Source: Enterobacteria phage IME10
Reading direction: 5' to 3' (one strand)
Sequence record: NC_019501.1
DNA length: 39,646 nucleotides
This document shows, piece after piece, positions 5,749-38,917 of this stretch. Under the pieces are notes generated by a model. It worked only from the letters and a program-made list of their open reading frames with translations. It did not search any database and was not told where the DNA came from. Each line of letters opens with the position of its first letter. The first letter of the stretch is position 1. The position numbers and the translations under genes are program-made.

Positions 5749-5772
5749 GGGTGGTTCCTTATGTTGGTTTTA

Positions 5773-6741: not shown

Positions 6742-6752
6742 ATATCCTCCGT

Positions 6753-6928: not shown

Positions 6929-7117
6929 TTAAATTTCCTTCCATCCCCAATCAAGCGTTTCAAATGCTATATCACGCATGTTTTCGTCTTTTTCGTCCTG
7001 ATCCATTTCATTCCACTCATTCTCGGATAAGCCAAGATCACCGAGTGTTACAACTGTCTTTTTGCAAGAGTGAATGTTTGCGCCGGAATCCAACCAAATT
7101 TCAAATTTACGTTCCAT
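6929..7117 (-). CDS. Hypothetical small acidic protein (62 aa) immediately downstream of N
   Basis: Track ORF in the slot occupied by ral/ea10 in lambda; no homology recognised. Confidence 0.45.
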   Translation of the reverse strand: MERKFEIWLDSGANIHSCKKTVVTLGDLGLSENEWNEMDQDEKDENMRDIAFETLDWGWKEI

Positions 7118-7125
7118 ATATCACC

Positions 7126-7425
7126 TCAAATAAGTGGTTTGCTGCCTAATTTCATTTTCTGGCGACCAACACAAGTCACACCCATTTCACTGCGTGGCTT
7201 GCGGTAGTAAATACGGTTCTGTTTACGCTCGACTTCTTCTGCCTTCTTGCAGCGAAGGATTCCGAGTGATGCTGCTTTATCTGCTCTGACGCAACCAGAG
7301 AGCTTTAGCGCAATTTTTCGTGCCAATCGCTGTTCTTGCATTGCCTGTTCACGTTGAGCCTGTCTGCGTGCTCTGCGGCGATTTCTGGCGTTATCGTCAG
7401 CCAGATATGTAATGACTACTGTCAT
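7126..7425 (-). CDS. N: Antitermination protein N
   Basis: Arg-rich N-terminal motif (NARNRRRARRQAQREQ); C-terminus (RKPRSEMGVTCVGRQKMKLGSKPLI) matches the lambda N C-terminus as remembered. GGAGGT ribosome-binding site. Confidence 0.8.
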   Translation of the reverse strand: MTVVITYLADDNARNRRRARRQAQREQAMQEQRLARKIALKLSGCVRADKAASLGILRCKKAEEVERKQNRIYYRKPRSEMGVTCVGRQKMKLGSKPLI

Positions 7426-7619
7426 GTTGACCTCCGATGATTGACTTTGGTGATTGGATGGCCGGTGCTGAATTCCGGCTTACTGGTTAGAGCGCCCGCA
7501 CTACCAGTGACGCTGTCTTGAGGCGCAGATTGGTTACTGCTTGCCATGAGCGCTGTTTATACATTGGTCGAGCATCAGCCTGCTCATTCATCCAATCCCA
7601 AAGCCAACTACTCTTTGGT

Positions 7620-7660
7620 TCCCGCATTTCGGCGGGACAATCCCATCAATGTTAAAGAGC
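7620..7660 (-). promoter_or_regulatory. nutL (boxA GCTCTTTAAC plus boxB hairpin)
   Basis: Minus strand reads GCTCTTTAAC, a 13-nt spacer, then TCCCGC-CGAAAT-GCGGGA. The same boxA and boxB recur on the plus strand downstream of cro. Confidence 0.65.
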
Positions 7661-7699
7661 CTGCCAACCTGTTCCGTTTGGCTACCAGCGTCCTGCTGA

Positions 7700-7790
7700 T
7701 GGCTTAAATTTAAGATCTCTTTAATTAATGGTCAAGAGTATTTTTGAAGAAAACTTAAATTTTCTTTCGTAACTTAAGTTTGGCTTTGAT
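7700..7790 (-). promoter_or_regulatory. OL operators and pL promoter
   Basis: Minus-strand TTGACC at 7735..7730 and TAAATT at 7712..7707. Overlaps ATTTAAGATCTCTTTAAT-type imperfect palindromes resembling the OR sites. Confidence 0.45.
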
Positions 7791-7807
7791 TTTTAAAGGA
7801 AATAAAA

Positions 7808-7830
7808 AAAAGGGGCGAATGCCCCCTTAT
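7808..7830 (-). terminator. Rho-independent terminator downstream of c2
   Basis: Minus strand has GGGGGCATTCGCCCC hairpin followed by T8, abutting the c2 stop. Confidence 0.55.
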
Positions 7831-8477
7831 GGAAGGTTTGCTAGTTTTGCATCGACAACTACGCCGATGATTTTGCAGTTTCCGTTGATCTCGATCATCG
7901 GATATTGTGGGTTAAGTGGTTTTAGAAACTTCCTGCCTGCATCAATAACTAACTTCTTGAAAGTTGCCTCGTTTTCTCCTTCGAGCTTTGCAACTACCAG
8001 TTTCCCGTTACGCGGCTCTACTTCAGGATCGACGAGTATTATCATTCCTTCAGGGATACTGAGACCGGCCGGAGCCGTCATTGAGTCTCCCTTCACGTCC
8101 AACCAAAACGAATCTTCTGAACAGTCTACGGTTGTATCGTACCAGTTATCTATTGCACGCTTATGATATGGTTCTACAGCTTCCATCCAGCATCCTGCGC
8201 TCACCCAGCTAATCAGAGGGTATGACCCTCTTGGATCATGCCTACTGTGATAGGCAATGTTTGAAAGACTTTCCTCTCCTTTCATCAGATAGTCAGGGGA
8301 ACACTTCAACGCATTAGCCAGGGCGAGAAGATTCTCTCCATTTGGCTCTGTCTCAGAGCGTTCCCACTGAGATATGGCAACATTAGACACGCCGACCATC
8401 TTTCCAAGTGCGGCCTGCCTGATCTTGAGTTCTTTTCTCCGAGCGCGAATGCGCTCTCCCATCAATTGAGTTTTCAT
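7827..8477 (-). CDS. c2: Prophage repressor C2 (P22-type, LexA-like autocleavable)
   Basis: 216 aa, near-identical over its length to P22 C2 as remembered (MKTQLMGERIRARRK...GVVVDAKLANLP): N-terminal HTH and C-terminal S24 peptidase-like domain. Confidence 0.95.
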   Translation of the reverse strand: MKTQLMGERIRARRKELKIRQAALGKMVGVSNVAISQWERSETEPNGENLLALANALKCSPDYLMKGEESLSNIAYHSRHDPRGSYPLISWVSAGCWMEAVEPYHKRAIDNWYDTTVDCSEDSFWLDVKGDSMTAPAGLSIPEGMIILVDPEVEPRNGKLVVAKLEGENEATFKKLVIDAGRKFLKPLNPQYPMIEINGNCKIIGVVVDAKLANLP

Positions 8478-8548
8478 AGTTAAGACATCTTAAATAAACT
8501 TGACTTAAGATTCCTTTAGTGGATAATTTAAGTGTTCTTTAATTTCGG
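8478..8548. promoter_or_regulatory. OR operators with pR (and divergent pRM)
   Basis: pR has TTGACT (8500-8505), a 16-nt spacer and GATAAT (8522-8527), then GGAG and the cro ATG. Operator-like palindromes TTAAGACATCTTAA (8480-8493) and ATTTAAGTGTTCTTTAAT (about 8526-8543). Confidence 0.65.
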
Positions 8549-8557
8549 AGCGAGTCT

Positions 8558-8743
8558 ATGTACAAGAAAGATGTTATCGACCACTTCGGAACCCAGCGTG
8601 CTGTAGCTAAAGCGTTAGGCATTAGCGACGCAGCAGTCTCTCAGTGGAAGGAAGTCATCCCAGAGAAAGACGCCTATCGACTGGAAGTCGTTACAGCTGG
8701 CGCCCTGAAGTATCAAGAAAGCGCTTACCGCAAAGCGGCATAA
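8558..8743 (+). CDS. cro: Cro repressor (P22-type)
   Basis: 61 aa, MYKKDVIDHFGTQRAVAKALGISDAAVSQWKE..., matching P22 Cro as remembered. Confidence 0.95.
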   Translation: MYKKDVIDHFGTQRAVAKALGISDAAVSQWKEVIPEKDAYRLEVVTAGALKYQESAYRKAA

Positions 8744-8750
8744 GCAAATT

Positions 8751-8793
8751 GCTCTTTAACAGTCATGGTCCTCATTCCCGCCGAAATGCGGGA
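8751..8793 (+). promoter_or_regulatory. nutR (boxA GCTCTTTAAC plus boxB TCCCGCCGAAATGCGGGA)
   Basis: Same boxA and boxB as nutL, in the pR transcript between cro and cII. Confidence 0.65.
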
Positions 8794-8851
8794 ATACAAC
8801 GCGCATAAGTTGATGCGCATAACTTCTTATTTGTTAAGGAAATACTTACAT

Positions 8852-9130
8852 ATGGAACTTACAAGTACTCGCAAGAAAGCGAATGCAATTACAAGCAACA
8901 TCCTGAATCGAATTGCTGTACGTGGCCAGCGAAAGGTTGCCGACGCATTAGGGATCAATGAATCGCAAATTTCGCGATGGAAAGACAGCTTTATCCCAAA
9001 GATGGCCATGCTTCTGGCTGTTCTTGAATGGGGTGTTGAAGACGAGGAGTTGGCTGAACTGGCTAAGAAAGTAGCCAGAATGCTGGCAAAAGAAAAAGCC
9101 CCGAAGAACGGCGAATTCTTCGAGGCCTGA
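8852..9130 (+). CDS. cII: cII-type transcriptional activator (P22 c1 homologue)
   Basis: Track ORF 8765..9130 trimmed to the ATG at 8852 (AAGGA ribosome-binding site), because the longer reading would span nutR. ...GQRKVADALGINESQISRWK...MLLAVLEWGV resembles cII/C1. Confidence 0.85.
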   Translation: MELTSTRKKANAITSNILNRIAVRGQRKVADALGINESQISRWKDSFIPKMAMLLAVLEWGVEDEELAELAKKVARMLAKEKAPKNGEFFEA

Positions 9131-9164
9131 TGTAGAAAGACTGGATCAATCCACAGGAGTAATT

Positions 9165-9326
9165 ATGACAAAACGTCGTAAGAAATACCAGGAAAAAGAA
9201 GAGATTCGACACCCTGATTCACCTGAGGGATTAGTGGTAGCCGCAGCAAATAACAGGGCGTTCGCAGAGCGCCTTGTTGGTGTTTACAGACTAGCCAAAG
9301 CAGGAGTGAAACATGGGCGTCGTTAA
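9165..9326 (+). CDS. Small basic hypothetical ORF (53 aa) between cII and the replication gene
   Basis: Hand-translated MTKRRKKYQEKEEIRHPDSPEG...; AGGAG ribosome-binding site 5 nt upstream. Not in the track (under 60 aa). Confidence 0.35.
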   Translation: MTKRRKKYQEKEEIRHPDSPEGLVVAAANNRAFAERLVGVYRLAKAGVKHGRR

Positions 9327-9375
9327 GTTAGCTGATTACAGGCATAACCCTGTACAACATCAGGAGGCATCCAGT

Positions 9376-10203
9376 ATGGGGTATGTCTCTATACACCGCC
9401 AGTTTATGGACAGCAGGCTCTATAAGGACTCTCAGGCAGTACATCTTTGGCTTCACTTAATCCTCAAGGCTAATCACGAATCTACTGTCGTCAATACGGA
9501 TATCGGGCCGATAACTGTTGATCGCGGTCAGATGATAACTGGACGCCCGTCGCTGGTCAGAGAAACATTCATCCCCGACAACAAAGTTCGGAGCTTATTG
9601 CGGACTTTTGAGTCGAAAGGGATGCTTAATATTTGCTCGATGGGGAAGAAATTTAGCCTGTTTACAATCGTTAAATATGACGATTTTCAGGCAAAAAATT
9701 GTCCAACGGTTGTCCAACGGTTGTCCAACGCAAACACCAGTAATGGCGCGGCTCTCAGCGGAGATTGTCCAACGGTTGTCCAACGGTTGTCCATAAACAA
9801 TAATATAAATAATATCTCTAATACTGACGTATTAGAGAGTGCCACAGCAGACAAAAAGTCTGACAAGAAAAAACCTTCCGTTAGCTGTCAGGATGTTGTC
9901 GATGCTTACCACGAAATCCTTCCTGAAGCGCCAAAAATCCGCGCACTGAATGACAAGCGTAAAAACCAGATCCGAACGTTCTGGCGCAAAGCCGGAGTGA
10001 TAACCCGCCAGCTTGACGGGCATGGGTTCACGATGCAGGACTGGAGAAATTATTTGAGCTACGTAGGCGAAAATTGCCGATGGATGTTCGAAGAGCGTCC
10101 AAACCATCAACGCGGAACCGTCTGGCACAAAAAGGGATTTGATTTCCTGCTTAACGATAATACCTACCTGAAAGTTCGTGAGGGTGAACACGATGACCGA
10201 TAA
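9376..10203 (+). CDS. Replication initiator (O-like origin-binding protein)
   Basis: Track ORF 9313..10203 trimmed to the ATG at 9376 (AGGAGG with an 8-nt spacer). Origin iterons lie inside the coding region, and its stop overlaps the helicase start. Confidence 0.8.
   Translation: MGYVSIHRQFMDSRLYKDSQAVHLWLHLILKANHESTVVNTDIGPITVDRGQMITGRPSLVRETFIPDNKVRSLLRTFESKGMLNICSMGKKFSLFTIVKYDDFQAKNCPTVVQRLSNANTSNGAALSGDCPTVVQRLSINNNINNISNTDVLESATADKKSDKKKPSVSCQDVVDAYHEILPEAPKIRALNDKRKNQIRTFWRKAGVITRQLDGHGFTMQDWRNYLSYVGENCRWMFEERPNHQRGTVWHKKGFDFLLNDNTYLKVREGEHDDR
9699..9825. repeat. Replication origin: two sets of three TTGTCCAACGG iterons plus an AT-rich tract
   Basis: TTGTCCAACGG x3 at 9699-9731 and x3 at 9765-9797 (last copy degenerate), followed by AACAATAATATAAATAATATCTC. 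Confidence 0.75.
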
Positions 10204-11629
10204 TTTTTATGCGCCGCCCCATAGCATCGAGGCAGAGCAGGCGGTGATTGGTGGATTGCTTCTGGATGATGACAGCAGTGAGCGCGTCCGGAAAGTTCTG
10301 GCGATGCTGAAGCCTGATTCATTTTACAGCCGACCACACAAAATCCTTTTCGAAGAAATAACCAGAATGCACCGGGAGCAAAAGCCAGTAGATGGGCTGA
10401 CGCTTTTCGATGAACTGGAGCGCAAATCGTTAACGGCGTCTGTTGGCGGTTTTGCTTATATCGCTGAGATCGCAAAGAACACGCCAAGCGCAGCAAACAT
10501 CGTTGCCTATGCAATGCAGGTTCGTGAAACCGCAATGGAACGCTACGCCATCAACCGCATGACTGAAGCGACGGAATTGCTCTATTCCCGCAACGGAATG
10601 ACTGCAACGCAGAAGTACGAAGCTATTCAGGCAATTTTCACGCAACTGACAGACCATGCAAAAACCGGATCGCGTCGCGGCCTTCGCTCATTTGGTGAGG
10701 TCATGGAAGACTGGGTTAGCGACCTTGAGAAGCGTTTTGACCCGTCAGGCGAACAACGAGGAATGAGCACAGGGATCCCATCGCTGGACAGGATGCTGTC
10801 ACCGAAAGGTCTGGTGAAAGGCTCTCTGTTTGTCATTGGCGCTCGCCCTAAGATGGGGAAAACGACGCTATACAGCCAGATGGCAATCAACTGCGCAGTG
10901 CATGAGAAAAAGCCTGCTCTGATGTTCAGCCTTGAAATGCCAGGTGATCAGATACTGGAAAAACTGGTAGGGCAGAAGTCTGGTGTTAACCCGAATATTT
11001 TTTACCTTCCGGCGACAAATGACGCCGATGACGGCTATCAGGGTGATTACGATGGTGACTTCAACAGGGCGATCGAAACAGCAAATCGCTTGAGTGAAAT
11101 CGACCTGCTTTACATCGACGACACGCCGGGATTATCTCTGGCTCAAATCGTCAGCGAAAGCCGTCGAATCAAACGAGAAAAAGGATGCGTTGGCATGATT
11201 CTGGTCGATTACCTGACACTAATGACCGCTGAGAAGGCCGATCGCAACGACCTTGCTTACGGCATGATCACCAAAGGACTGAAGAACCTTGCCAAAGAGC
11301 TTGATTGCGTTGTTGTGCTTCTTACACAACTTAACCGCGCACTGGAAAGCCGAACCAATAAACGCCCATTACCAAGTGACTCACGAGATACAGGGCAGAT
11401 TGAACAGGATTGCGATTATTGGGTGGGGATCCATCGTGAAGGTGCTTTTGATGACAGTGTTCCACCTGGTGAAACCGAACTAATCCTTCGTCTCAATCGT
11501 CATGGCAATACCGGCACGGTGTATTGCATTCAGGCAAATGGAGCTATTTATGACACAGACCAACAGTCTGCTGAAATGCGCCGACGTGAACGCGAGGAAC
11601 CGCAGTCCAAGAAGAAAGGAGGATTCTGA
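10193..11629 (+). CDS. Replicative DNA helicase (DnaB family, P22 gene 12-like)
   Basis: Walker A GARPKMGKTTL and a DnaB-like N-terminal domain (HSIEAEQAVIGGLL). ATG at 10193 overlaps the stop of the O-like gene. Confidence 0.9.
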   Translation: MTDNFYAPPHSIEAEQAVIGGLLLDDDSSERVRKVLAMLKPDSFYSRPHKILFEEITRMHREQKPVDGLTLFDELERKSLTASVGGFAYIAEIAKNTPSAANIVAYAMQVRETAMERYAINRMTEATELLYSRNGMTATQKYEAIQAIFTQLTDHAKTGSRRGLRSFGEVMEDWVSDLEKRFDPSGEQRGMSTGIPSLDRMLSPKGLVKGSLFVIGARPKMGKTTLYSQMAINCAVHEKKPALMFSLEMPGDQILEKLVGQKSGVNPNIFYLPATNDADDGYQGDYDGDFNRAIETANRLSEIDLLYIDDTPGLSLAQIVSESRRIKREKGCVGMILVDYLTLMTAEKADRNDLAYGMITKGLKNLAKELDCVVVLLTQLNRALESRTNKRPLPSDSRDTGQIEQDCDYWVGIHREGAFDDSVPPGETELILRLNRHGNTGTVYCIQANGAIYDTDQQSAEMRRREREEPQSKKKGGF

Positions 11630-11658
11630 TGACCATCTACATCACTGAGCTAATAACA

Positions 11659-11688
11659 GGGGCTATTTACACAGTAGCCCTTTTTTAT
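11659..11688 (+). terminator. Rho-independent terminator after the helicase gene
   Basis: GGGGCTA...TAGCCC hairpin followed by TTTTTTATT. Confidence 0.5.
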
Positions 11689-11713
11689 TGGATTAAGAAC
11701 GAGGGGGATCCTG

Positions 11714-11926
11714 ATGGACACCGTTAACGGAATGTGTTCAGACGCACCGCGTGCCAAAAAATGTAAATGCGGAAAATTACCGACAATATTCGACATGGAG
11801 AACGGGTGCCAAATCTACTGCGCTAACCACGCTGCTGTGGCGGCCGCGAATTATCGCAGTGCGGTAACGGAGTGGAATAACCTGAAATCTGTTAGAGAGG
11901 GAAGTCATGAAAAAACTAACCTTTGA
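11714..11926 (+). CDS. Small Cys-rich hypothetical protein (nin region)
   Basis: Track ORF; GAGGGGGA ribosome-binding site. Reads CKCGK...CQIYC, zinc-ribbon-like. Confidence 0.4.
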   Translation: MDTVNGMCSDAPRAKKCKCGKLPTIFDMENGCQIYCANHAAVAAANYRSAVTEWNNLKSVREGSHEKTNL

Positions 11927-12347
11927 AATTCGATCTCCAGCACATCAGCAAAACGCTATTCACGCGGTACAGCAAATTCTTCCAGACCCAACCAAACCAA
12001 TCGTAGTAACCATTCAGGAACGCAACCGCAGCTTAGACCAAAATCGGAAGCTTTGGGCTTGCCTTGGTGACGTCTCTCGTCAGGTTGAATGGCATGGTCG
12101 CTGGCTGGATGCAGAAAGCTGGAAGTGTGTGTTTACCGCAGCATTAAAGCAGCAGGACGTTGTTCCTAACCTTGCCGGGAATGGCTTTGTGGTAATAGGC
12201 CAGTCAACCAGCAGGATGCGTGTAGGCGAATTTGCGGAGCTATTAGAGCTTATACAGGCATTCGGTACAGAGCGTGGCGTTAAGTGGTCAGACGAAGCGA
12301 GACTGGCTCTGGAGTGGAAAGCGAGATGGGGAGATCGGGCTGCATGA
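11907..12347 (+). CDS. ninB: NinB (Orf-family recombination mediator)
   Basis: 146 aa, matches lambda NinB as remembered (MKKLTFEIRSPAHQQNAIHAVQQILPDP...). Confidence 0.85.
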   Translation: MKKLTFEIRSPAHQQNAIHAVQQILPDPTKPIVVTIQERNRSLDQNRKLWACLGDVSRQVEWHGRWLDAESWKCVFTAALKQQDVVPNLAGNGFVVIGQSTSRMRVGEFAELLELIQAFGTERGVKWSDEARLALEWKARWGDRAA

Positions 12348-12871
12348 CTATCAAATCAAATACGCCAGCACACGACAAGGACTGCTGGCAAACGCCGCTT
12401 TGGCTTTTTGATGCACTGGATATTGAGTTTGGATTCTGGCTGGATTCGGCAGCGAGCGACAAAAATGCTCTGTGTGCTCACTGGCTAACTGAGGCCGACG
12501 ACGCGCTCAATTCTGAGTGGGTAAGCCACGGTGCAATCTGGAATAACCCACCGTACAGCAATATCAGGCCGTGGGTGGAAAAAGCCGCTGAGCAGTGCAT
12601 ACAACAGCGACAGACGGTAGTGATGCTTGTGCCAGAGGATATGTCTGTCGGATGGTTCAGCAAGGCTCTGGAGAGTGTTGACGAAGTTCGCATCATCACT
12701 GATGGACGGATTAATTTTATCGAACCATCGACGGGGTTGGAGAAGAAGGGAAACAGCAAAGGTTCCATACTGCTGATTTGGCGACCGTTCATCAGTCCTC
12801 GACGGATGTTTACTACCGTATCCAAAGCGGCATTGATGGCGATCGGGCAGGGCGTCAGGAGGGCGGAATGA
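12344..12871 (+). CDS. Phage N6-adenine DNA methyltransferase (Dam-like)
   Basis: Track ORF 12284..12871 trimmed to the ATG at 12344, which overlaps the ninB stop. Contains the NPPY catalytic motif (IWNNPPYS) and an N-terminal [15 protein letters not shown] signature. Confidence 0.7.
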
Positions 12872-13044
12872 GGCGACAGCAACGAAGTATCACCGACATA
12901 ATCTGCGAAAACTGCAAATACCTTCCAACGAAACGCTCCAGAAATAAACGCAAGCCAATCCCAAAAGAATCTGACGTAAAAACCTTCAACTACACGGCTC
13001 ACCTGTGGGATATCCGGTGGCTAAGACATCGTGCGAGGAAATGA
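12868..13044 (+). CDS. ninE: NinE
   Basis: ATG at 12868 overlaps the methyltransferase stop. [30 protein letters not shown]... resembles lambda NinE (from memory). Confidence 0.65.
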
Positions 13045-13406
13045 CAATGGATTATTCACAGTTAAGTGATTTTGAAATTAACGTGGCGGTATTCGAAGTC
13101 ATTCATAACGGATCACCGGATTACAAAGAAGGTGAGAATGGCGATATGGTGTTTATCTCATTTGAGGGAGACGTTGTAAACGGAGACGCAGTTGAAGTAG
13201 AAGTTGAGCGCGGATCATTTAACCCATGCGTAAACCCAGCAGACGCATGGCCGATTGTTGAAAAATACAGGATTAGCATTATCAATCTCGATGAAGACGA
13301 GTGGGGTGCACGCGGTGTGGCCTACTGTAAATCTAAGCGAGCTATACATGAAAATCCCCTCCGCGCCGCCATGATTGTCTTTCTCATGATGCAGAGAATC
13401 CAATAA
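13041..13406 (+). CDS. NinX-like hypothetical protein
   Basis: ATG at 13041 overlaps the ninE stop. Occupies the ninX position between ninE and ninF; family assignment tentative. Confidence 0.4.
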
Positions 13407-13582
13407 TGCTTAGCCCATCCCAATCCCTTCAATACCAGAAAGAAAGCGTCGAGCGGGCTTTAACGTGCGCTAACTGCGACCAGAAGCTGCATGTGCTGGA
13501 AGTTCACGTGTGTGAGCACTGCTGCGCAGAACTGATGAGCGATCCGAATAGCTCAATGTACGAGGAAGAAGACGATGGCTAA
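13406..13582 (+). CDS. ninF: NinF
   Basis: Hand-translated 58-aa [46 protein letters not shown]..., lambda NinF-like. Not in the track (under 60 aa). Confidence 0.65.
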
Positions 13583-14186
13583 ACCAGCGCGAAGACGATG
13601 TAAAAACGATGAATGTCGGGAATGGTTTCACCCTGCATTCGCTAATCAGTGGTGGTGCTCTCCAGAGTGTGGAGCCAAGATAGCACTCGAACGACGAAGC
13701 AAAGAACGCGAAAAAGCGGAAAAAGCAGCAGAGAAGAAACGACGACGAGAGGAGCAGAAACAGAAAGATAAACTTAAGATTCGAAAACTCGCCTTAAAGC
13801 CCCGCAGTTACTGGATTAAACAAGCCCAACAAGCCGTAAACGCCTTCATCAGAGAAAGAGACCGCGACTTACCATGTATCTCGTGCGGAACGCTCACGTC
13901 TGCTCAGTGGGATGCCGGACATTACCGGACAACTGCTGCGGCACCTCAACTCCGATTTGATGAACGCAATATTCACAAGCAATGCGTGGTGTGCAACCAG
14001 CACAAAAGCGGAAATCTCGTTCCGTATCGCGTCGAACTGATTAGCCGCATCGGGCAGGAAGCAGTAGACGAAATCGAATCAAACCATAACCGCCATCGCT
14101 GGACTATCGAAGAGTGCAAGGCGATCAAGGCAGAGTACCAACAGAAACTCAAAGACCTGCGAAATAGCAGAAGTGAGGCCGCATGA
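13575..14186 (+). CDS. ninG: NinG / Rap recombination-associated endonuclease
   Basis: 203 aa, Cys-rich N-terminus, matches lambda NinG as remembered. Confidence 0.85.
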
Positions 14187-14389
14187 CGTTCTCAGTAAAA
14201 ACCATTCCAGACATGCTCGTTGAAGCATACGGAAACCAGACAGAAGTAGCACGCAGACTGAAATGTAGTCGCGGTACGGTCAGAAAATACGTTGATGATA
14301 AAGACGGGAAAATGCACGCCATCGTCAACGACGTTCTCATGGTTCATCGCGGATGGAGTGAAAGAGATGCGCTATTACGAAAAAATTGA
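14183..14389 (+). CDS. ninH: NinH
   Basis: 68 aa, [37 protein letters not shown]..., HTH-containing, lambda NinH-like. Confidence 0.8.
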
Positions 14390-15032
14390 TGGCAGCAAAT
14401 ACCGAAATATTTGGGTAGTTGGCGATCTGCACGGATGCTACACGAACCTGATGAAAAAACTGGAGGCGATAGGATTCGACACCAAAAAAGACCTGCTTAT
14501 CTCGGTTGGCGATTTGGTCGATCGCGGTACAGAGAACGTCGAATGTATGGAATTAATCACATTCCCCTGGTTCAGAGCTGTACGTGGAAACCATGAGCAA
14601 ATGATGATTGATGGCTTATCAGAGCGTGGAAACGTTAATCACTGGCTGCTTAATGGCGGTGGCTGGTTCTTTAATCTCGATTACGACAAAGAAATTCTGG
14701 CTAAAGCTCTTGCCCATAAAGCAGATGAACTTCCGTTAATCATCGAACTGGTGAGTAAAGGGAAAAAATATGTCATCTGCCACGCCGATTATCCTTGTGA
14801 CGAATACGAGTTTGGAAAGCCAGTTGATCATCAGCAGGTAATCTGGAACCGCGAACGAATCAGCAACTCACAAGACGGGATCGTGAAAGAAATCAAAGGC
14901 GCGGACACGTTCATCTTTGGTCATACGCCAGCAGTGAAACCACTCAAATTTGCCAACCAGATGTATATCGATACCGGAGCAGTGTTCTGCGGAAACCTCA
15001 CATTGATTCAGGTACAGGGAGAAGGCGCATGA
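14367..15032 (+). CDS. ninI: Ser/Thr protein phosphatase (lambda PPase / NinI)
   Basis: Track ORF trimmed to the ATG at 14367. Metallophosphatase motifs GDLHGC, GDLVDRG and GNHE. Confidence 0.9.
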
Positions 15033-33546: not shown

Positions 33547-33807
33547 TTAGCTACTGTCTTTTTTATATAGCTTCTTGAGCGTATCAAAGACAATTTTCTT
33601 AACCATATCAGATTGTTGTTCTGCCATACGCTCTGCATCGTCAATGTAAACTGATGCAGAGCTTTGTTTATCCAATGATTCTTCAATCGCTGCAATTATC
33701 TCTGAGTTCAGCGACCTGTTATTCATCTTCGCGCGCTGTTTAATTTTCGCGTGGAGTTCATGCGGAAGTCTCAAGTGAAACTGCGCCTCGTCGTATTTGC
33801 TGTACAT
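33547..33807 (-). CDS. mnt: Mnt-like ribbon-helix-helix repressor
   Basis: Track ORF 33547..33840 trimmed to the ATG at 33807. Matches P22 Mnt as remembered, especially the C-terminus (DAERMAEQQSDMVKKIVFDTLKKLYKK). Confidence 0.8.
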   Translation of the reverse strand: MYSKYDEAQFHLRLPHELHAKIKQRAKMNNRSLNSEIIAAIEESLDKQSSASVYIDDAERMAEQQSDMVKKIVFDTLKKLYKKDSS

Positions 33808-33880
33808 CCTTGATGCCTCACCAGTTGGGTGGAATGGCATCGTAACCTACTGGATAAATACTCAATAGTACCATTTCGGT

Positions 33881-33903
33881 ATGCAATCACATCATGATTG
33901 CAT
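33881..33903. promoter_or_regulatory. 9-5-9 inverted repeat ATGCAATCA-CATCA-TGATTGCAT between mnt and the tailspike
   Basis: Perfect 9-bp arms, 25 bp upstream of the tailspike ATG and divergent from mnt. Candidate operator. Confidence 0.4.
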
Positions 33904-33928
33904 CATATCATTCGTCTGGAGCAATGAA

Positions 33929-35749
33929 ATGTCAGATATCACCGCAAATGTTGTGGTAAGCATGCCTTCGCAACTATTCACTATGGCGCGTTCTTTTAAA
34001 GCCGTAGCCAATGGAAAAATTTATATCGGTAAAATTGACACTGACCCGGTAAATCCTGAAAACCAGATTCAGGTTTATGTGGAAAACGAAGACGGTTCTC
34101 ACGTTCCTGTTGCACAGCCAATCATCATTAACGCTGCTGGTTACCCTGTATATAATGGACAGATTGCCAAATTCGTAACTGTGCAAGGCCATTCGATGGC
34201 TGTATACGATGCGTATGGTGTGCAGCAGTTTTATTACCCGAATGTGCTGAAGTATGACCCTGATCAGTTGGAGCAACGATTGTCTTCACCTGGTGGCGCA
34301 GTGTATATAGGTGGCGTTGGTGGTGGAAATTTATCCCAAATAATAAATGCGGTATCTCCAGAACAGTTCGGAGCAGTAGGAGACGGATTCACTGATGATA
34401 TTGAAGCTCTCGATGCTTGCATGGCTTTTGCGAGAGAAAAACCATTAGACATTATATTTAGTAAGACATACGCAATTTCACGTCCTTATGTTATTTACAT
34501 GGGAAATAAAAAAAATCCTCGCCATATTGGTCAAGGGTCCATGGCGAAAATAATATTAACCACAACAACAAAATCTGGATTGGGTAGTGACTCATACGGT
34601 ACTGATTTGAATGTAAACGCAGCTGTTATTGTAGCCGCGATCACAGGTACAGGGCATAACCAACAACCCCAGAACTTTCGGTGGGAAAACATTGACCTTG
34701 ACACCACTGTAGATGCAGATTACGGCATGTACACGTCAAAAATGCAGTCCGCGGCAGTCAGTAATTTCAGGACGTATAATTTCAAGACAGGTATTCAGGA
34801 TAACGGTTCCTGGAATACGTTGTATGAAAACATTAAGATGTCTGCCCACTCCACCGTAGGTTTCCGTAAAAATGCTGGTACTAGTACTACTATCCGTAAC
34901 TGTTACGTAGAGAAATCGAAAGTTGGTTATCGTGTTTACAGCGGATACTCTCAGATTGAAGGGTGTGCATGCGACACTAGCACTGATGTCTCGTATTGGA
35001 TTGAAGGTAACCCAGTAGCTTTAAGTAGTGACAGCACGTTTTCTCTTGTGTCATGTGGCGCAGAGAATTCAGGGACGGCCGTGGTACGAATTACTGGGAC
35101 ACTAACAGCAAGTATTATCAACTTTCAATCATTTAATTGGTCACAACAGCAAGACCCGACACCAGATTGTTTCTTAGATATTCAGTCCAACACTGCTAGC
35201 ATTTCAGTTGAAGAGGTCAGATATCTTGGTGTTGCTCGCAGGATAAAAGACACTGGAACAAACAACACAGTTATCATAAGAAATATGACGACTCGTGGTA
35301 CAGATGTTAGAGATCAGGATACCTATCCAAATAGCACTAGAATTATTGAGCTTAATCATAACGGTGTGCGAGTAGCGACAGGTTACGATAAAAATGGGAT
35401 TTTGATCACTGAAGATAATATGACCGATTCAATCGGAAGTACTACATGGTCAAGGCTATTTAACAAACAAAAAATTTGGCGCTATAGGGGTATAGTAACA
35501 AGAACAAGCGGTCAGAGTTACGGAAGGTTACAGATCAATATTCCGTTCACTATGGCTGATAATAGTTATAGCGTTGCTATTACACCAGAAGTGTATCACA
35601 CCGATATGGCAACATATGGTTACCAATGTTCAGTAGGCCCAACTGATAAAACAACAACATCATTCTTCATCAACGTAAACTCTGGAACAGGTAACACGTC
35701 ATGGAACAGTATAGCTGTTGACGTAATTGTGATGGGGCTTTCTATCTAA
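33929..35749 (+). CDS. Tailspike protein with a conserved head-binding domain and a divergent receptor-binding domain
   Basis: Track ORF 33881..35749 trimmed to the ATG at 33929. N-terminal 110 aa or so match the P22/Sf6 tailspike head-binding domain as remembered; the rest is unrelated to P22 gp9. Confidence 0.9.
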
Positions 35750-35761
35750 TTAATGTGTTGC

Positions 35762-35797
35762 GATGGAATTGGCTAATGTGATATATGCAATTCCATC
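35762..35797. repeat. Stem-loop: 10-bp perfect inverted repeat GATGGAATTG / CAATTCCATC with a 16-nt spacer
   Basis: Lies 13 bp after the tailspike stop, at the edge of the AT-rich cargo region. Confidence 0.35.
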
Positions 35798-35993
35798 ACT
35801 TCATTGTATGCGGTTGATGACATGTGATATTTGTAATTAGATTAATAATAACTAAGTTTACTATACAGAAAGGAGGTTATATTGCTCTACTACATGGTAT
35901 GCCATGATATAAAATGTGATCTATATCTCAAGTTGCTTATTTATTATTTCCATGCTAAGATAAATTCCCGTTAATAATTATATTATATCTTCT

Positions 35994-37460
35994 ATGAGAA
36001 ATATGAAATTACTCTCAAAAAGACTAGTGGTAATTGTATGTTCTGTATTTATCCTTTCAATTATATTGTGCATACATTTAAGAAAGGGAAACTTTAACCT
36101 CAATAATATAAGTAGCGTACAAAATGCTAATGACATATCAACAACCAATAGTATATTGAATGATGATTTAGTGTTTTCCGAAAGATATGATTCCCTTTTT
36201 TATTACTTCGTGCATTCGTTTGTTAAATATTCTTCAGATGATTATGCTCTTGTTAATTATCCTGGGATGCTATCGACGAGTGGGAATAAGACAAACCAAG
36301 TTGAGGGTACGGCAAGGACGCTACCATTAATTGCTGCATGGGTTTATTCTGGAAGAGATTCAACCATTATCGTTAATGGTAATAAGTTAAATATAGTAGA
36401 TCTGATTAGGAGTAGTATATTGTCTGGAACTAATCCAAGTTCTGTAAACTATTGGGGGGATATACATGATTATGATCAGAGAATTTTAGAGGCCGCAGAT
36501 ATAGTAAGAGTCTTATGGCTTACAAAAAAAGAGATATGGAATCACTTAAAAGATAATGAAAAAAATCAGATAGCTTTGTGGCTGGAGCAAGCTGCATCGG
36601 CGAAAACTGTAAAAAACAATTGGCTACTAGCTCCATTCATAATTCAGAATTTTTTGCAGGATAATGGATATACAGTTAAGGTTAATTACAAAAATTACAC
36701 AGACTTTAAGAAAAACTATCTTGAACACGGATGGTTTAGAGATGGAAATGATGGAGAAGTAGATTTCTATAATACTTGGGGTATATCCTATGACTTATTC
36801 TGGATATCACTTATTACAGATTATGATAATGCTTTTATACTAAAAACACTATCTGAGTCGGCTGATTTCACTTCACATTTAATATCTAAAAATGGCATCC
36901 CGCTTGTTGGTAGAAGTATTTGCTACAGGACTGCAGCACCCACACCTGTTCTAATTGAAGGTCTATTAAAAAATGATGGATATCATCAAGGTTTAGCAAA
37001 ATCAGCATTAGACTATACGTGGAAATATTTTGCAAGCCACAATGCATTAGTATCAGATACATTATCAATGGGGTATTTTAATAATGACAAGCGCTTTGTT
37101 GATAATTATAGCGGGTCAGGAAGTTGCCTGTGGGGAATAAGGTCGTTAGTTGTCGCTTATATGAATGATAAAAAATCATATATCTGGAATGGGAAATATG
37201 AGAGATTGCCTATTGATAATTCTGATTTCATTATCAATGCAGATAAACTTGGTTGGATAGTTGAGGGTAATAAAGATAGTGGAGAGATAAGGGTTATTAT
37301 ACCTGCAAACGAAAAAAACTCACCAAAGATAAATGATACCAATAAACTTAAAGAAGTTATATGGAGAGTTCTTGGTAAAGCAGGAAGAACTAATCAACAT
37401 GACATTGAGTACCTAAAGCCATATTACTCATCACTAGAGCCTATATCTGACGTTGAGTGA
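35994..37460 (+). CDS. Hypothetical signal-anchored protein (488 aa), AT-rich cargo gene
   Basis: Track ORF (alternative start ATG 36003). N-terminal hydrophobic segment KRLVVIVCSVFILSIILCIHL, then an Asn/Lys/Tyr/Trp-rich domain. AT-rich codon usage unlike the rest of the window. Confidence 0.6.
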   Translation: MRNMKLLSKRLVVIVCSVFILSIILCIHLRKGNFNLNNISSVQNANDISTTNSILNDDLVFSERYDSLFYYFVHSFVKYSSDDYALVNYPGMLSTSGNKTNQVEGTARTLPLIAAWVYSGRDSTIIVNGNKLNIVDLIRSSILSGTNPSSVNYWGDIHDYDQRILEAADIVRVLWLTKKEIWNHLKDNEKNQIALWLEQAASAKTVKNNWLLAPFIIQNFLQDNGYTVKVNYKNYTDFKKNYLEHGWFRDGNDGEVDFYNTWGISYDLFWISLITDYDNAFILKTLSESADFTSHLISKNGIPLVGRSICYRTAAPTPVLIEGLLKNDGYHQGLAKSALDYTWKYFASHNALVSDTLSMGYFNNDKRFVDNYSGSGSCLWGIRSLVVAYMNDKKSYIWNGKYERLPIDNSDFIINADKLGWIVEGNKDSGEIRVIIPANEKNSPKINDTNKLKEVIWRVLGKAGRTNQHDIEYLKPYYSSLEPISDVE

Positions 37461-37493
37461 TAACTTTATATTAATTGTTATTTGACATATGTT

Positions 37494-37518
37494 TTAAGGT
37501 GGCATTATGCCACCTTTT
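37494..37518. terminator. Hairpin between the convergent cargo ORF and int (bidirectional terminator candidate)
   Basis: AAGGTGGCAT / ATGCCACCTT inverted repeat followed by TTTT; the int stop codon lies in the loop. Confidence 0.5.
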
Positions 37519-38662
37519 CATCAAGCCAGTCCGCCCACCACTGCATCATTTCTCTGCGCTTATCGAGATACTGAGCATGGTTGTAAATCCCACGCACAGA
37601 TCCGCCGTTGGCATGTGCCAGTTGCACTTCAATAGCGTCAGCAGGCCATTCGTGCTCGTTCATAATTGTGCTGAATTCATGCCTGAATCCGTGACCGCTT
37701 TCCAGACCCTCATAGCCGATTTGTTTGATCACAAGCAATACTGCGTTCTCGCAGATTGGCTTCTTCTTATCGTTGCGCCCGGCAAAAACAAACTCTGATA
37801 CTGGTTTAGTGATTGAGCTTAGTGTAGTGAGAAGTTCAACTACCTGGTCTGACATAGGAACCACATGAATTTTGCGTCCCTTCATCACACTGGCGTCAAT
37901 GGTGATAATCATGTTTTCAAAATCGACGTTCTTCCATTGCATGGAACGAAGCTCTTTTGTTCTGAGGGCTGTGTAGCGTAAAACTTTTGTCGCAATGAGC
38001 GATACGATACTTCCTGAAAATGTTGCAAGTGCTTTGTTGAATGCCGGGATCTGGTCGGCAGGAAGAAACGGGAAGTTCTTCTTGCGGTATCCCTTCATGG
38101 CGTCAGCAAGGTCAGGTGCCGGGTTATATTTAGCCCTGCCGGTGACAATAGCGTAACGGAAAACCTCGCCGCATCTTCTGCGTGCTTTGTTGGCTCGCTC
38201 CATTGCACCGCGATCTTCAAATCTGCGGATTACTTCCAGCAGTTGCATCGGCTCAATATCCAGAATCTCAAGGCCGCCGATGATAGGTAAAATGTCGTCA
38301 TCAAACATTTTTGCAAGTTCAGTCGCATACCCTACTGACCAGACTTGCTTCTTGTGCTCGTACCATTCCTTGTAAATCGCACTAAAGGAATTGTTGTTAG
38401 ACGAAGCCTTTTTCGCTTTTACCGGATCGATGCCAACCGAGATGTCTTTCCTCGCGGTCCATGCTTTATCTCTTGCCTCCTGCAAAGTCATTAGCGGATA
38501 TTTTCCTACGGTCAGGATTTTCTCCTTACCGTCAATCTTGTAGCGAAGCTGCCATACCTTTTTCCCTGACACAGGGACATAAAGGTACAGGCCATTACCA
38601 TCGAGTAGGCGGTATGGTTTTTCTTTCGGCTTTGCTGCTTCAATCTGCTTAACGGTGAGCAT
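37505..38662 (-). CDS. int: Tyrosine integrase (P4-type, with an N-terminal arm-binding domain)
   Basis: Track ORF 37505..38698 trimmed to the ATG at 38662 (MLTVKQIEAAKP...). Catalytic signatures HGFRHEF and GIYNHAQY. Confidence 0.9.
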   Translation of the reverse strand: MLTVKQIEAAKPKEKPYRLLDGNGLYLYVPVSGKKVWQLRYKIDGKEKILTVGKYPLMTLQEARDKAWTARKDISVGIDPVKAKKASSNNNSFSAIYKEWYEHKKQVWSVGYATELAKMFDDDILPIIGGLEILDIEPMQLLEVIRRFEDRGAMERANKARRRCGEVFRYAIVTGRAKYNPAPDLADAMKGYRKKNFPFLPADQIPAFNKALATFSGSIVSLIATKVLRYTALRTKELRSMQWKNVDFENMIITIDASVMKGRKIHVVPMSDQVVELLTTLSSITKPVSEFVFAGRNDKKKPICENAVLLVIKQIGYEGLESGHGFRHEFSTIMNEHEWPADAIEVQLAHANGGSVRGIYNHAQYLDKRREMMQWWADWLDEKVA

Positions 38663-38917
38663 GGGTAAAAATCCGGTGGGTAAAATTATTTTATCCACTT
38701 TTTACCCGTCATGGAGTGCGGCTGTCAACGATCTGAAGCGAACCATGACGAACTGTAAATCTACGGAAGGCTTGATATTCAGGGGATTTTGCGGACTGGT
38801 ACGGATGAGAGCGAACTGATAAATGGTGTCCCCTGCAGACATCTACTTGAAGCGGCAGGGGATTGATTGGAATGGTGTTTTTTAGATGTGAAAAAAATTT
38901 TACCCGCTATTTTACCC
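38663..38917. promoter_or_regulatory. Cluster of five GGGTAAAA / TTTTACCC repeats between xis and int (candidate integrase arm-type sites, attP region)
   Basis: Direct copies at 38663-38670 and 38678-38685; inverted copies at 38700-38707, 38898-38905 and 38910-38917. Also an 8-bp inverted repeat TCCCCTGC...GCAGGGGA at about 38829-38863. Confidence 0.4.

What the first reader, a model, noticed from the sequence alone, without database searches (positions are those of the whole stretch)
35750..37520. AT-rich cargo gene in the tailspike-to-integrase slot encoding a signal-anchored 488-aa protein of unknown function
The ORF at 35994..37460 lies between the tailspike stop and the integrase 3' end, where P22-like phages typically carry lysogenic-conversion genes (O-antigen glucosylation or acetylation). 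Its composition is visibly AT-rich with weak translation signals, unlike the flanking modules, suggesting recent acquisition. The product has one N-terminal hydrophobic anchor and a large Asn/Tyr/Trp-rich domain. I cannot match it to GtrA/B/C or Oac, which are polytopic membrane proteins. It is bracketed by a 10-bp-stem hairpin (35762-35797) and a bidirectional terminator (37494-37518). Hypothesis: a periplasm-facing surface-polysaccharide-modifying or exclusion/defence protein expressed from the lysogen.
Basis: partly seen in the sequence, partly recalled or inferred. Interest (0 to 1): 0.7.

Follow-up and report, generated by a model that had tools for sequence, protein, structure and literature searches.

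The report
Phage cargo gene: exported uronate dehydratase homolog
A P22-like E. coli phage carries, in the slot where its relatives keep O-antigen-modifying genes, a foreign AT-rich gene for a membrane-anchored, periplasm-facing relative of sugar-acid (glucuronate) dehydratases, which probably alters the host's surface polysaccharide by a chemistry not yet described for any phage.

Summary
A 488-aa ORF (35994..37460, GC 33% against 49% for the rest of the phage) lies between the tailspike and the integrase of a complete P22-like E. coli phage.

Unlike the catabolic members, it has an N-in signal anchor and no GH88 partner. It belongs to an uncharacterised exported clade of about 500 aa. In other bacteria this clade often sits in Wzx/Wzy-type polysaccharide biosynthesis clusters.

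A 65%-identical allele occupies the same slot beside an unrelated tailspike. A third allele rides a small Klebsiella-type plasmid.

Best reading: a lysogenic-conversion enzyme that performs beta-elimination at a uronic acid of a surface glycan on the periplasmic face. Family and fold are shown. Substrate, expression and phenotype are inferred. No catalogued phage carries a close homolog.

The parts
33881..35749 (+). Tailspike gene (context partner). The Head_binding domain starts at residue 17, so the real start is probably the ATG at 33929. The receptor-binding part is unlike any solved tailspike.
   Evidence: Pfam Head_binding E 1.7e-66 and phrog_8280 E 2e-117. PDB hits cover only the N-terminal ~115 residues. 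The best phage hit for the C-terminal part is the vB_Ec-G1 tail protein at 68%.
35762..35797 (+). Perfect 10-bp inverted repeat with a 16-nt loop, just after the tailspike stop. No U-tract follows, so it is not a canonical terminator and read-through from the late operon is possible.
   Evidence: -16.2 kcal/mol, z -2.1
35750..35993 (+). AT-rich (GC 0.29) spacer upstream of the cargo gene. No convincing sigma-70 promoter on the + strand. Identical in three allele-1 contexts but not alignable with the allele-2 or allele-3 upstream regions.
35994..37460 (+). Cargo gene: 488-aa DUF2264/BcGDH-family protein. The alternative start at 36003 gives 485 aa.
36024..36080 (+). Codons for the single N-terminal hydrophobic helix (residues 11-29). 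Predicted signal anchor, N-in/C-out.
   Evidence: Hydropathy and charge bias. Model helix spans residues 2-31. Some homologs carry lipoboxes or cleavable signal peptides instead.
36195..37199 (+). DUF2264 catalytic (alpha/alpha)6 domain, residues 68-402. Contains E104, R108, N208, N209, W210, Y259, R307, Y311 and Y372, the equivalents of BcGDH E74, R78, N176, N177, W178, Y229, R285, Y289 and Y354.
37200..37457 (+). C-terminal extension of about 85 residues (small beta-rich subdomain). Conserved in the clade (W421, G425, R465 and Y473 are invariant). Also aligned up to residue 460 in the cytoplasmic pYE854 homolog.
37496..37520 (+). GC-rich hairpin (9 bp with a 3-nt loop) followed by TTTTC. Probable intrinsic terminator of the cargo gene. 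It overlaps the integrase stop codon.
   Evidence: z -3.8
37505..38698 (-). IntS-type tyrosine integrase, convergent with the cargo gene. Related prophages sit at tRNA argW. attP lies beyond its 5' end, so the cargo gene stays internal to the prophage.

Best explanation
The gene is a horizontally acquired accessory gene ('moron') in the lysogenic-conversion slot of a P22-like E. coli phage.

What the product is: a catalytically intact member of the DUF2264/BcGDH family (ex-GH154). It is tethered to the inner membrane by an N-terminal signal anchor, with the enzyme domain in the periplasm.

Proposed activity: by analogy with BcGDH, a Tyr base (Y259) abstracts H5 of a uronic acid. An Arg (R307) stabilises the carboxylate/enolate. 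A Tyr acid (Y311) protonates the leaving group on C4. The result is a 4,5-unsaturated uronate.

Proposed target: in the periplasm the only polymeric substrates are Und-PP-linked repeat units and nascent chains of O-antigen, capsule, colanic acid or ECA. I therefore propose that the enzyme dehydrates an exposed (terminal or side-chain) beta-uronic acid. Less likely, it cleaves at a 4-linked one.

Proposed consequence: this changes or truncates the surface polysaccharide that the phage's own tailspike recognises. That would be serotype conversion or receptor masking, which blocks superinfection and changes antigenicity.

Shown: family, fold, active-site conservation, hydrophobic anchor, slot, foreign composition, purifying selection, and the context of relatives.

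Inferred: topology, substrate, dehydratase versus lyase outcome, expression in lysogens, and phenotype.
For: Family and fold:
- Pfam PF10022: 214.5 bits against a cutoff of 25, covering 8-350 of 353 profile positions.
- PDB sequence hits to BcGDH 9o4u/9nwf at E 1e-10 and to GH154 8oi4.
- AF2 model with pLDDT 95.2 and pTM 0.93.

Chemistry:
- BcGDH and BT3677 are beta-glucuronate 4,5-dehydratases, and ten active-site alanine mutants are inactive (PMC12269599).
- Nine of those ten residues are conserved here.
- R108, W210, Y259, R307, Y311 and Y372 are invariant across 47 clade members.

Export:
- One TM helix with K/R counts of 4 before and 2 after.
- Clade members carry TM anchors. Some carry lipoboxes (P0086, P0114...LTAC) or a cleavable ...ALA signal (P0095).
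- The 32%-identical catabolic homolog on pYE854 lacks any hydrophobic N-terminus. It sits with PTS, GH88 and PL8 genes.

Context of clade members:
- Rhizobium sp. 007: Wzy_C, Wzx, GT2 and acetyltransferase genes.
- L020: GT2, Wzx, WecG, GT4, acyltransferase, DUF2264, beta-helix, GT4 and exosortase.
- Among 95 immediate neighbours at 49 GTDB loci, the commonest family is Wzy_C (9). Next come NDP-sugar dehydratase/epimerase (6), GT2 (4), GT4 (4) and hexapeptide transferases (4). No GH88 or GH105 is in the top 25.
- 14 of 48 loci have at least 3 glycan-biosynthesis gene categories within 8 kb.

Phage logic:
- A 65%-identical allele lies in the same tailspike-DUF2264-int(argW) slot next to an unrelated tailspike receptor domain.
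- Allele 1 is always found with the window's tailspike type.
- dN/dS between the two alleles is 0.13.
- Decayed prophages keep the gene intact.
- A third allele is cargo on a small Rop-type plasmid typical of Klebsiella.

Precedent: a native 4-deoxy-threo-hex-4-enuronic acid residue is reported in the Klebsiella K38 capsule (review PMC6856556).
Against: - No activity, expression or phenotype data exist.
- The host's O/K antigen is unknown, so it is unknown whether any accessible beta-uronic acid exists.
- No convincing promoter was found upstream. The upstream hairpin is not a terminator, so the gene could be a late (lytic) gene rather than lysogen-expressed.
- Topology rests on the positive-inside rule and on homolog signals, not on a dedicated predictor or experiment.
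- About a third of clade loci (16 of 48) show no glycan-biosynthesis neighbour. The neighbour census had no matched random control, and several Wzy_C cases are related Flavobacteriaceae.
- BcGDH F181 and Y175 are not conserved (A213, K207), so substrate specificity differs.
- Slot genes are not always the converting genes: Kapi1's slot gene hyp24 gave no LPS change.
Confidence: 0.55

Rival explanations
1. Same enzyme and location, but it acts as a periplasmic polysaccharide lyase. It would cleave at 4-linked uronic acids, trimming or destroying nascent capsule, colanic acid, ECA or O-antigen. This would resemble the hydrolase/lyase subunits of EPS machineries (AlgL-like). The lysogen would then display less or shorter receptor rather than a chemically modified one.
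For: The BcGDH mechanism is the polysaccharide-lyase mechanism with OH as the leaving group. More distant fold neighbours are PL8, PL35, PL15 and heparinase-type lyases. The clade sits inside EPS clusters, where periplasmic glycanases are commonplace (general knowledge). The C-terminal extension and the changes at BcGDH Y175 and F181 could open a plus-side subsite.
Against: All characterised family members act on a terminal, saturated GlcA, and none has lyase activity. The residues that form the terminal-sugar pocket are conserved.
Confidence: 0.18
2. It is a lytic-cycle accessory gene, co-transcribed with the tailspike by read-through of the late operon. It would shut down or alter receptor polysaccharide synthesis in the infected cell, so that progeny are not trapped on debris or on neighbouring infected cells. 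It would not be a lysogen-expressed converting gene.
For: It has the same orientation as the tailspike. The intervening hairpin has no U-tract and only a modest z-score. No promoter above background lies upstream. The only good terminator lies after the cargo gene.
Against: Decayed prophages that have lost the late operon and most of the tailspike still keep an intact gene. So does a small plasmid. This argues for a benefit to the host independent of lytic growth. AT-rich foreign genes often carry unrecognisable promoters.
Confidence: 0.12
3. It is a nutritional moron. The periplasmic enzyme would prime host- or diet-derived GlcA-terminated oligosaccharides (glycosaminoglycan fragments) for use by the bacterium in the gut, as BcGDH does in Bacteroides.
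For: This is the only demonstrated function of the family. A 32%-identical enterobacterial homolog sits in exactly such a catabolic cluster on pYE854 and on E. coli and Citrobacter plasmids. The hosts are gut E. coli.
Against: There is no GH88/GH105, lyase or transporter partner here or next to clade relatives. The catabolic enterobacterial homolog is cytoplasmic, whereas this protein is anchored and exported. The gene co-varies with tailspike type.
Confidence: 0.08
4. It is a passenger with no current role: a recently captured foreign gene that is silent (for example H-NS-repressed) and selectively neutral.
For: Very low GC, weak translation signals and no recognisable promoter. It is rare: 1 of 5426 complete E. 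coli genomes and no other IMG/VR contig.
Against: dN/dS is 0.13 between alleles. The catalytic residues are invariant. The ORFs are intact in several independent decayed prophages and on a plasmid.
Confidence: 0.06

Closest known systems
BcGDH, the beta-D-glucuronate 4,5-dehydratase of Bacteroides caccae PUL25 (PDB 9O4U/9NWF), with BT3677 and the metagenomic 'beta-galactosidase' 8OI4 (Pfam PF10022 DUF2264, former CAZy GH154)
   Different: Only 17-19% identity in structural alignment. It has an uncleaved signal anchor rather than a Bacteroides signal peptide, and an extra C-terminal subdomain of about 85 residues. It has no GH88/GH105 partner and is not in a utilisation locus. BcGDH Y175 and F181 are replaced. 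It is encoded by a phage.
DUF2264 protein of Yersinia enterocolitica plasmid pYE854 (WP_012291309.1; the same gene is on E. coli and Citrobacter plasmids)
   Same: 488 aa, 32% identical over residues 56-460. The catalytic motifs are the same and the alignment runs into the C-terminal extension.
   Different: It has no hydrophobic N-terminus. It sits in a DeoR-PTS(GalNAc)-GH88-DUF2264-PL8 catabolic operon. It is therefore a cytoplasmic catabolic enzyme, not an exported one.
Seroconversion genes in the tailspike-integrase slot of P22-like phages: Sf6/Sf101 oac (O-acetyltransferase) and P22 gtrABC (glucosylation)
   Same: Same genomic slot, the same kind of phage and the same argW-type integration module. 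Low-GC moron character and a predicted action on surface polysaccharide at the periplasmic face.
   Different: No sequence or fold relationship. Those are polytopic membrane acyl- or glycosyl-transferases that add a group. This is a single-anchor enzyme predicted to remove water (or a glycosyl group) by beta-elimination.
Periplasmic glycanases/lyases encoded within EPS biosynthesis clusters (for example AlgL of alginate systems). Comparison from general knowledge.
   Same: An exported enzyme of lyase-type chemistry encoded among Wzx/Wzy/GT genes in many clade relatives.
   Different: Different families. No member of this DUF2264 clade has been characterised, and none of these analogues is known as phage cargo.

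Membership tests
DUF2264 / PF10022 (BcGDH family, former CAZy GH154) | Full-length match to the Pfam model above the gathering score | tested here: met
   214.5 bits against a cutoff of 25, E 3e-63, profile positions 8-350 of 353
DUF2264 / PF10022 (BcGDH family, former CAZy GH154) | (alpha/alpha)6 toroid fold of the solved members | tested here: met
DUF2264 / PF10022 (BcGDH family, former CAZy GH154) | Active-site residues shown by mutagenesis to be required in BcGDH (E74, R78, N176, N177, W178, F181, Y229, R285, Y289, Y354) | tested here: met
   E104, R108, N208, N209, W210, Y259, R307, Y311 and Y372 are conserved. Only F181 is changed (A213). Six of these are invariant in 47 clade members.
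DUF2264 / PF10022 (BcGDH family, former CAZy GH154) | Beta-D-glucuronate 4,5-dehydratase activity (rise in A232, -18 Da product) | not testable with these tools
   Needs purified protein and substrates
Catabolic BcGDH-type pathway (dehydratase that primes for an unsaturated uronyl hydrolase) | Co-localisation with GH88/GH105 and with lyase or transport genes | tested here: not met
   There is no such gene in the window slot or in the allele-2 and allele-3 loci. None is among the top neighbour families of 49 clade loci. The arrangement is present for the pYE854 homolog.
P22-like phage lysogenic-conversion (seroconversion) module | Position between the tailspike and the int/att region | tested here: met
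   The same slot is used in allele-2 prophages. Literature on the slot.
P22-like phage lysogenic-conversion (seroconversion) module | Homology to a known converting enzyme (GtrA/B/C, Oac/acyltransferase_3, Wzy-type polymerase or its inhibitor, PEtN transferase) | tested here: not met
   Only PF10022 was found. No PHROG or NCBIfam hit.
P22-like phage lysogenic-conversion (seroconversion) module | Moron hallmarks: deviant composition, own promoter and terminator | tested here: inconclusive
   Composition deviates strongly and a terminator-like hairpin follows the gene. No promoter above background was found.
P22-like phage lysogenic-conversion (seroconversion) module | Expressed in the lysogen and alters LPS/CPS and phage adsorption | not testable with these tools
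   Needs lysogens, RNA-seq, LPS/CPS analysis and adsorption assays
Known anti-phage defence systems (PADLOC) | Significant match to a defence-system protein model | tested here: not met
   The only hit was KwaA at E 0.024, 12.9 bits, over the hydrophobic N-terminus

The most novel reading that the evidence does not exclude
The anchored, exported DUF2264 clade would be a previously unrecognised class of biosynthetic 'polysaccharide uronate 4,5-dehydratases'. These would install native 4-deoxy-hex-4-enuronic acid residues on Wzy-pathway glycans. That sugar is reported in the Klebsiella K38 capsule, and as far as I know its enzymatic origin is unexplained. This phage would use such an enzyme for a new chemical type of serotype conversion: dehydration rather than acetylation, glucosylation or a change of linkage. 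The gene would spread among Enterobacteriaceae on prophages and small plasmids.
Probability: 0.2. Interest if true: 0.85.

Novelty: new variant of a known kind. Interest (0 to 1): 0.62.

Why it matters
Serotype-converting phages are known to acetylate, glucosylate or re-link O-antigens. A periplasmic beta-eliminating enzyme would add a new chemistry to that list. It would also give the first biological role to a widespread, uncharacterised exported clade of the newly redefined GH154/BcGDH family. That clade sits in polysaccharide biosynthesis clusters of Proteobacteria, Flavobacteriia, Cyanobacteria and Acidobacteria.

It would bear on three practical matters:
- phage host-range prediction;
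- antigenic variation in gut E. coli and Klebsiella, since the gene rides prophages and small plasmids;
- CAZy-based annotation, because 'GH154' hits in biosynthetic loci would need re-reading.

The hypothesis is directly testable with one recombinant protein and one pair of isogenic lysogens.

Tried and rejected
- NCBIfam and PHROGs gave no hit for the cargo protein. PADLOC gave only an insignificant hit, so the defence reading was dropped.
- Megablast and tblastn against 50,697 phage records found no close homolog. The three weak hits (24-30% identity) include a mislabelled Salmonella contig.
- An IMG/VR scan with clade peptide patterns returned only the window itself.
- Megablast of allele 2 against complete E. 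coli genomes found nothing.
- A literature search for 'DUF2264' returned zero papers. The link to function came only through the PDB names and 'GH154'.
- Searching for papers on native unsaturated uronate in O-antigens found nothing. Only the K38 capsule mention in a review was found. A 'KL38' search gave no paper describing the locus gene content, so I could not test whether KL38 encodes a DUF2264.
- The promoter scan was at background level (13 found, 12.1 expected), so no promoter claim is made.
- Upstream regions of the three alleles do not align, so there is no conserved regulatory element.
- I considered whether Kapi1's unexplained O-antigen modification is due to a homolog. It is not, because no INPHARED record has one.
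- I could not identify the tailspike's glycan target. The 'colanic acid degradation' label comes only from a PHROG family name. The one record labelled that way matches just 14% of the query.
Full report
**1. What is in the sequence**

The window is one complete 39,646-bp viral contig, IMGVR_UViG_2597489916_000001. It is a P22-like E. coli phage. About 50-70% of its structural and replication region matches Escherichia phages APC_JM3.2, HZ41 and Dewey at ~96-97% identity. It matches P22 itself at 83%.

- Upstream lies a tailspike gene (33881..35749). Its N-terminus is the P22-type head-binding domain (Pfam E 1.7e-66).
- Downstream, and convergent, lies an IntS-type tyrosine integrase (37505..38698).
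- Beyond the integrase is a small TorI-like ORF (the same position as annotated torI in CUVM53), with only a weak, sub-threshold HTH_17 match.
- In related prophages at tRNA-argW the att site lies on the 5' side of int. The cargo gene is therefore internal to the prophage, exactly where Sf6/Sf101 carry oac and P22 carries gtrABC (literature).

The composition claim is correct.

| Region | GC |
|---|---|
| Cargo gene | 0.335 (GC3 0.27) |
| 244-bp spacer upstream | 0.287 |
| Tailspike | 0.41-0.43 |
| First 33.9 kb of the window | 0.487 |

Translation signals are weak. Nothing purine-rich precedes 35994, and only GAGA precedes the ATG at 36003. NCBI's pipeline uses 36003 as the start in E. coli CUVM53.

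The two hairpins exist.
- The upstream one (-16.2 kcal/mol, z -2.1) has no U-tract.
- The downstream one (z -3.8) is followed by UUUUC on the + strand only, and it overlaps the integrase stop codon.
- It therefore looks like the cargo gene's terminator, not a bidirectional one.
- The promoter scan is at background level.

**2. What the protein is**

It is not an orphan. It matches Pfam PF10022 (DUF2264) end to end at E 3e-63. A sequence search of the PDB finds two entries for a Bacteroides caccae beta-D-glucuronate dehydratase (9o4u and 9nwf, E 1e-10). It also finds a 'GH154 beta-galactosidase' (8oi4).

The paper behind those structures (Alvarez et al., J Biol Chem 2025, PMC12269599) reports the following:
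- The GH154 family consists of dehydratases, not glycosidases.
- These enzymes convert a non-reducing-end beta-GlcA into a 4,5-unsaturated uronate.
- The product is then removed by a GH88 or GH105 hydrolase.
- The family genes usually sit next to GH88 or GH105 genes.
- The paper proposes Y229 as base, Y289 as acid and R285 as the charge-stabilising residue.
- Alanine substitutions at ten pocket residues abolish activity.

Using the HMMER alignment and residue positions computed, nine of the ten residues are conserved here.

| BcGDH residue | Residue here |
|---|---|
| E74 | E104 |
| R78 | R108 |
| N176 | N208 |
| N177 | N209 |
| W178 | W210 |
| Y229 | Y259 |
| R285 | R307 |
| Y289 | Y311 |
| Y354 | Y372 |
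| F181 | A213 (not conserved) |

The mobile-loop residue Y175 is K207.

**3. How it differs from the characterised members**

*An N-terminal anchor.* Residues 11-29 form the only hydrophobic segment. Four K/R residues precede it and two follow. There is no signal-peptidase or lipobox motif. The model makes residues 2-31 one helix.

Across 47 relatives nearly every full-length sequence has such a segment. A few instead carry lipoprotein boxes (…LTAC in P0086 and P0114) or a cleavable …ALA signal (P0095). This argues that the domain is exported.

The contrast case is a 32%-identical, equally long homolog on Yersinia plasmid pYE854, also found on E. coli and Citrobacter plasmids. It has no hydrophobic N-terminus. 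It lies in a DeoR-PTS(GalNAc)-GH88-DUF2264-PL8 operon, the textbook catabolic arrangement.

*No partner hydrolase.* There is none here or near its close relatives.

*A distinct clade.* Its relatives form a clade of ~470-530-aa proteins at 35-45% identity. They occur in Alpha-, Beta- and Gammaproteobacteria, Flavobacteriia, Cyanobacteria, Acidobacteria and others.

**4. What the clade's genomic contexts say**

Individual look-ups:
- The clade gene in Rhizobium sp. 007 sits among Wzy_C, hexapeptide acetyltransferase, GT2, Wzx and Alg13/14-like genes.
- A gammaproteobacterial gene sits in a GT2-Wzx-WecG-GT4-acyltransferase-DUF2264-beta-helix-GT4-exosortase cluster.
- A third gene lies two genes (~1.8 kb) downstream of a Wzx.
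- Three others have uninformative surroundings.

I then took 49 loci from one-genome-per-species GTDB contigs, called ORFs, and scanned the 95 immediate neighbours against Pfam.

| Family among 95 immediate neighbours | Count |
|---|---|
| Wzy_C | 9 |
| NDP-sugar dehydratase/epimerase | 6 |
| GT2 | 4 |
| GT4 | 4 |
| Hexapeptide transferases | 4 |

No GH88, GH105, SusC/D or sugar transporter reached the top-25 list.

In Flavobacteriaceae the order is Wzy_C-like, then DUF2264, then acetyltransferase or MBOAT. In Sphingobium a strong Wzy_C gene is the upstream neighbour.

A seed-based census within ±8 kb gave these counts out of 48 loci:
- at least one glycan-biosynthesis category in 32;
- at least three categories in 14;
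- none in 16.

Caveats: there was no matched random control, and the seven Flavobacteriaceae loci are not independent. The direction is nevertheless clear. This clade keeps company with polysaccharide assembly, not polysaccharide catabolism.

**5. What the enterobacterial copies say**

The exact protein occurs in a few dozen E. coli assemblies, always annotated only as 'DUF2264 domain-containing protein'. It occurs in just 1 of 5426 complete RefSeq E. coli genomes.

That genome is strain CUVM53 (pig faeces). There the prophage at argW is a wreck, with two IS1 copies, a truncated recT and only the last 215 codons of the tailspike. The cargo gene and the integrase are nevertheless intact. The cargo region is 99.9% identical to the window, while the adjoining tailspike fragment is only 92% identical at the protein level. 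This implies a recombination boundary at the tailspike stop.

A second allele (65% identity; about 90 E. coli/Escherichia contigs) lies in the same tailspike-DUF2264-int-argW arrangement, again including decayed prophages. Its tailspike has an unrelated receptor-binding part with a Peptidase_S74 chaperone domain. Allele 1 is found with the window's tailspike type in all three contexts seen.

So the cargo allele co-varies with the receptor-binding protein, as expected if both address the same surface glycan. Only two pairings are observed.

Other points:
- dN/dS between the alleles is 0.13.
- A third allele (62% identity) is the cargo of a ~6.8-kb Rop-type plasmid. Its 4.6-kb backbone, which encodes a site-specific integrase, is common in Klebsiella pneumoniae.
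- All three alleles have 33-35% GC.
- No record among 50,697 deposited phage genomes, and no other IMG/VR contig, carries a close homolog.

**6. Most likely mechanism**

*Shown.* The gene encodes a catalytically complete BcGDH-family domain with an N-terminal membrane anchor. It is under purifying selection. It sits in the conversion slot, is mobile among Enterobacteriaceae, and belongs to a clade linked to Wzx/Wzy clusters.

*Inferred.* The domain faces the periplasm. The uronic-acid-bearing substrates available there are Und-PP-linked repeat units and nascent chains of O-antigen, capsule, colanic acid or ECA.

By the BcGDH mechanism the steps would be:
1. Y259 abstracts H5 of the uronic acid.
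2. R307 stabilises the enolate.
3. Y311 protonates the O4 leaving group.

If O4 carries a hydrogen, the result is dehydration of an exposed beta-uronic acid to a 4,5-unsaturated residue. With no GH88 or GH105 gene in the slot, that residue might persist as a stable modification. It would alter the epitope. It would block polymerisation if O4 is the Wzy acceptor position. If O4 carries a sugar, the result is chain cleavage.

Either way the lysogen's receptor for the adjacent tailspike changes. This is the purpose of Gtr and Oac in sister phages.

A native hex-4-enuronic acid residue is reported in the Klebsiella K38 capsule (review PMC6856556). Such a residue is therefore not chemically implausible in an enterobacterial polymer.

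I put 0.55 on this overall reading. The probability that the product is specifically a dehydrated, non-cleaved residue is clearly lower.

**7. Rivals**

- A periplasmic lyase that trims the receptor (0.18).
- A late-expressed lytic accessory gene (0.12). This is favoured by the lack of a promoter and of a terminator upstream. It is disfavoured by retention of the gene in decayed prophages and on a plasmid.
- A nutritional gene for glycosaminoglycan fragments (0.08). This is the family's only proven role, but the protein here lacks the partner enzymes and is exported.
- A silent passenger (0.06).
- A defence-system role has no support.

**8. Novelty and verdict**

The family is known and the slot is known. 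The combination is not. An exported BcGDH-type enzyme as phage cargo, from an uncharacterised biosynthesis-associated clade, has no described counterpart in the collections and literature searched here.

I rate it a new variant of a known kind (a lysogenic-conversion moron with a new enzyme class), with interest 0.62.

Its interpretation is partly supported and substantially sharpened.

Noticed in passing
window 33881-35749: The tailspike's receptor-binding part (residues ~140-622) matches no solved structure. Its only close phage relative is a tail protein of the 151-kb phage vB_Ec-G1 (68%), followed by ~34% matches in several E. coli phages. Its PHROG family is labelled 'colanic acid degradation', but I could not verify that label. 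The ORF as listed has a 16-codon leader before the head-binding domain, so the real start is probably the ATG at 33929.
   Followed up: partly
window 35871-35972: A strong Shine-Dalgarno-like AAGGAGG (35871-35877) precedes a TTG-initiated ORF of ~29 codons in the spacer upstream of the cargo gene. In allele-2 prophages a 65-aa Cys-rich ORF with no Pfam match fills the equivalent position (L004:2138-2335). The two are not alignable.
   Followed up: partly
L001 (E. coli CUVM53, NZ_CP116976.1) 6227-14913; L002 5807-10768; L003 1-2914: Three independently decayed argW prophages (IS1 insertions, tailspike reduced to a fragment, or the csc sucrose genes abutting) all retain an intact DUF2264 gene plus integrase. 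This suggests host-level selection for the cargo gene.
   Followed up: partly
L001 11353-13771 versus window 35100-37520: There is a sharp change in divergence at the tailspike stop codon. The tailspike C-terminus is 92% identical at the protein level, but the spacer plus cargo gene is 99.9% identical at the DNA level. This points to a recombination junction there.
   Followed up: no
L013 (ENA k141_9540, 6786 bp) and Klebsiella plasmids such as NZ_CP050824.1: A 62%-identical allele is the cargo of a small Rop-type plasmid. Its 4.6-kb backbone encodes a site-specific integrase and is widespread in Klebsiella pneumoniae. The backbone seems to act as a platform for cargo genes.
   Followed up: partly
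L083 (Yersinia enterocolitica pYE854, NC_010377.1) 2227-11766: Conjugative plasmids of Yersinia, E. coli and Citrobacter carry a complete-looking glycosaminoglycan utilisation operon: DeoR, GalNAc-type PTS, GH88, DUF2264 and PL8. It would be a portable chondroitin/hyaluronan catabolic module using the newly described dehydratase route.
   Followed up: no
window 33547-33840 (-): A Mnt/Arc-type ribbon-helix-helix repressor gene (Pfam Repressor_Mnt 8.5e-15, Arc 1e-14) lies just upstream of the tailspike. This is the immI-like position of P22. No antirepressor was looked for.
   Followed up: partly
window 1-39646: ARAGORN finds no tRNA gene in the phage, unlike the related argW-integrating phage Kapi1, which is reported to carry two.
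   Followed up: no
L002 7986-8001 versus L004 2292-2361: Gene callers start allele 2 at an internal Met (474 aa). In L004 the frame is open upstream and encodes MNMKYKKTIFSLIFMGVLS…, a hydrophobic N-terminus like the window's. In L002 that extension is out of frame, so this copy may have lost its anchor.
   Followed up: partly
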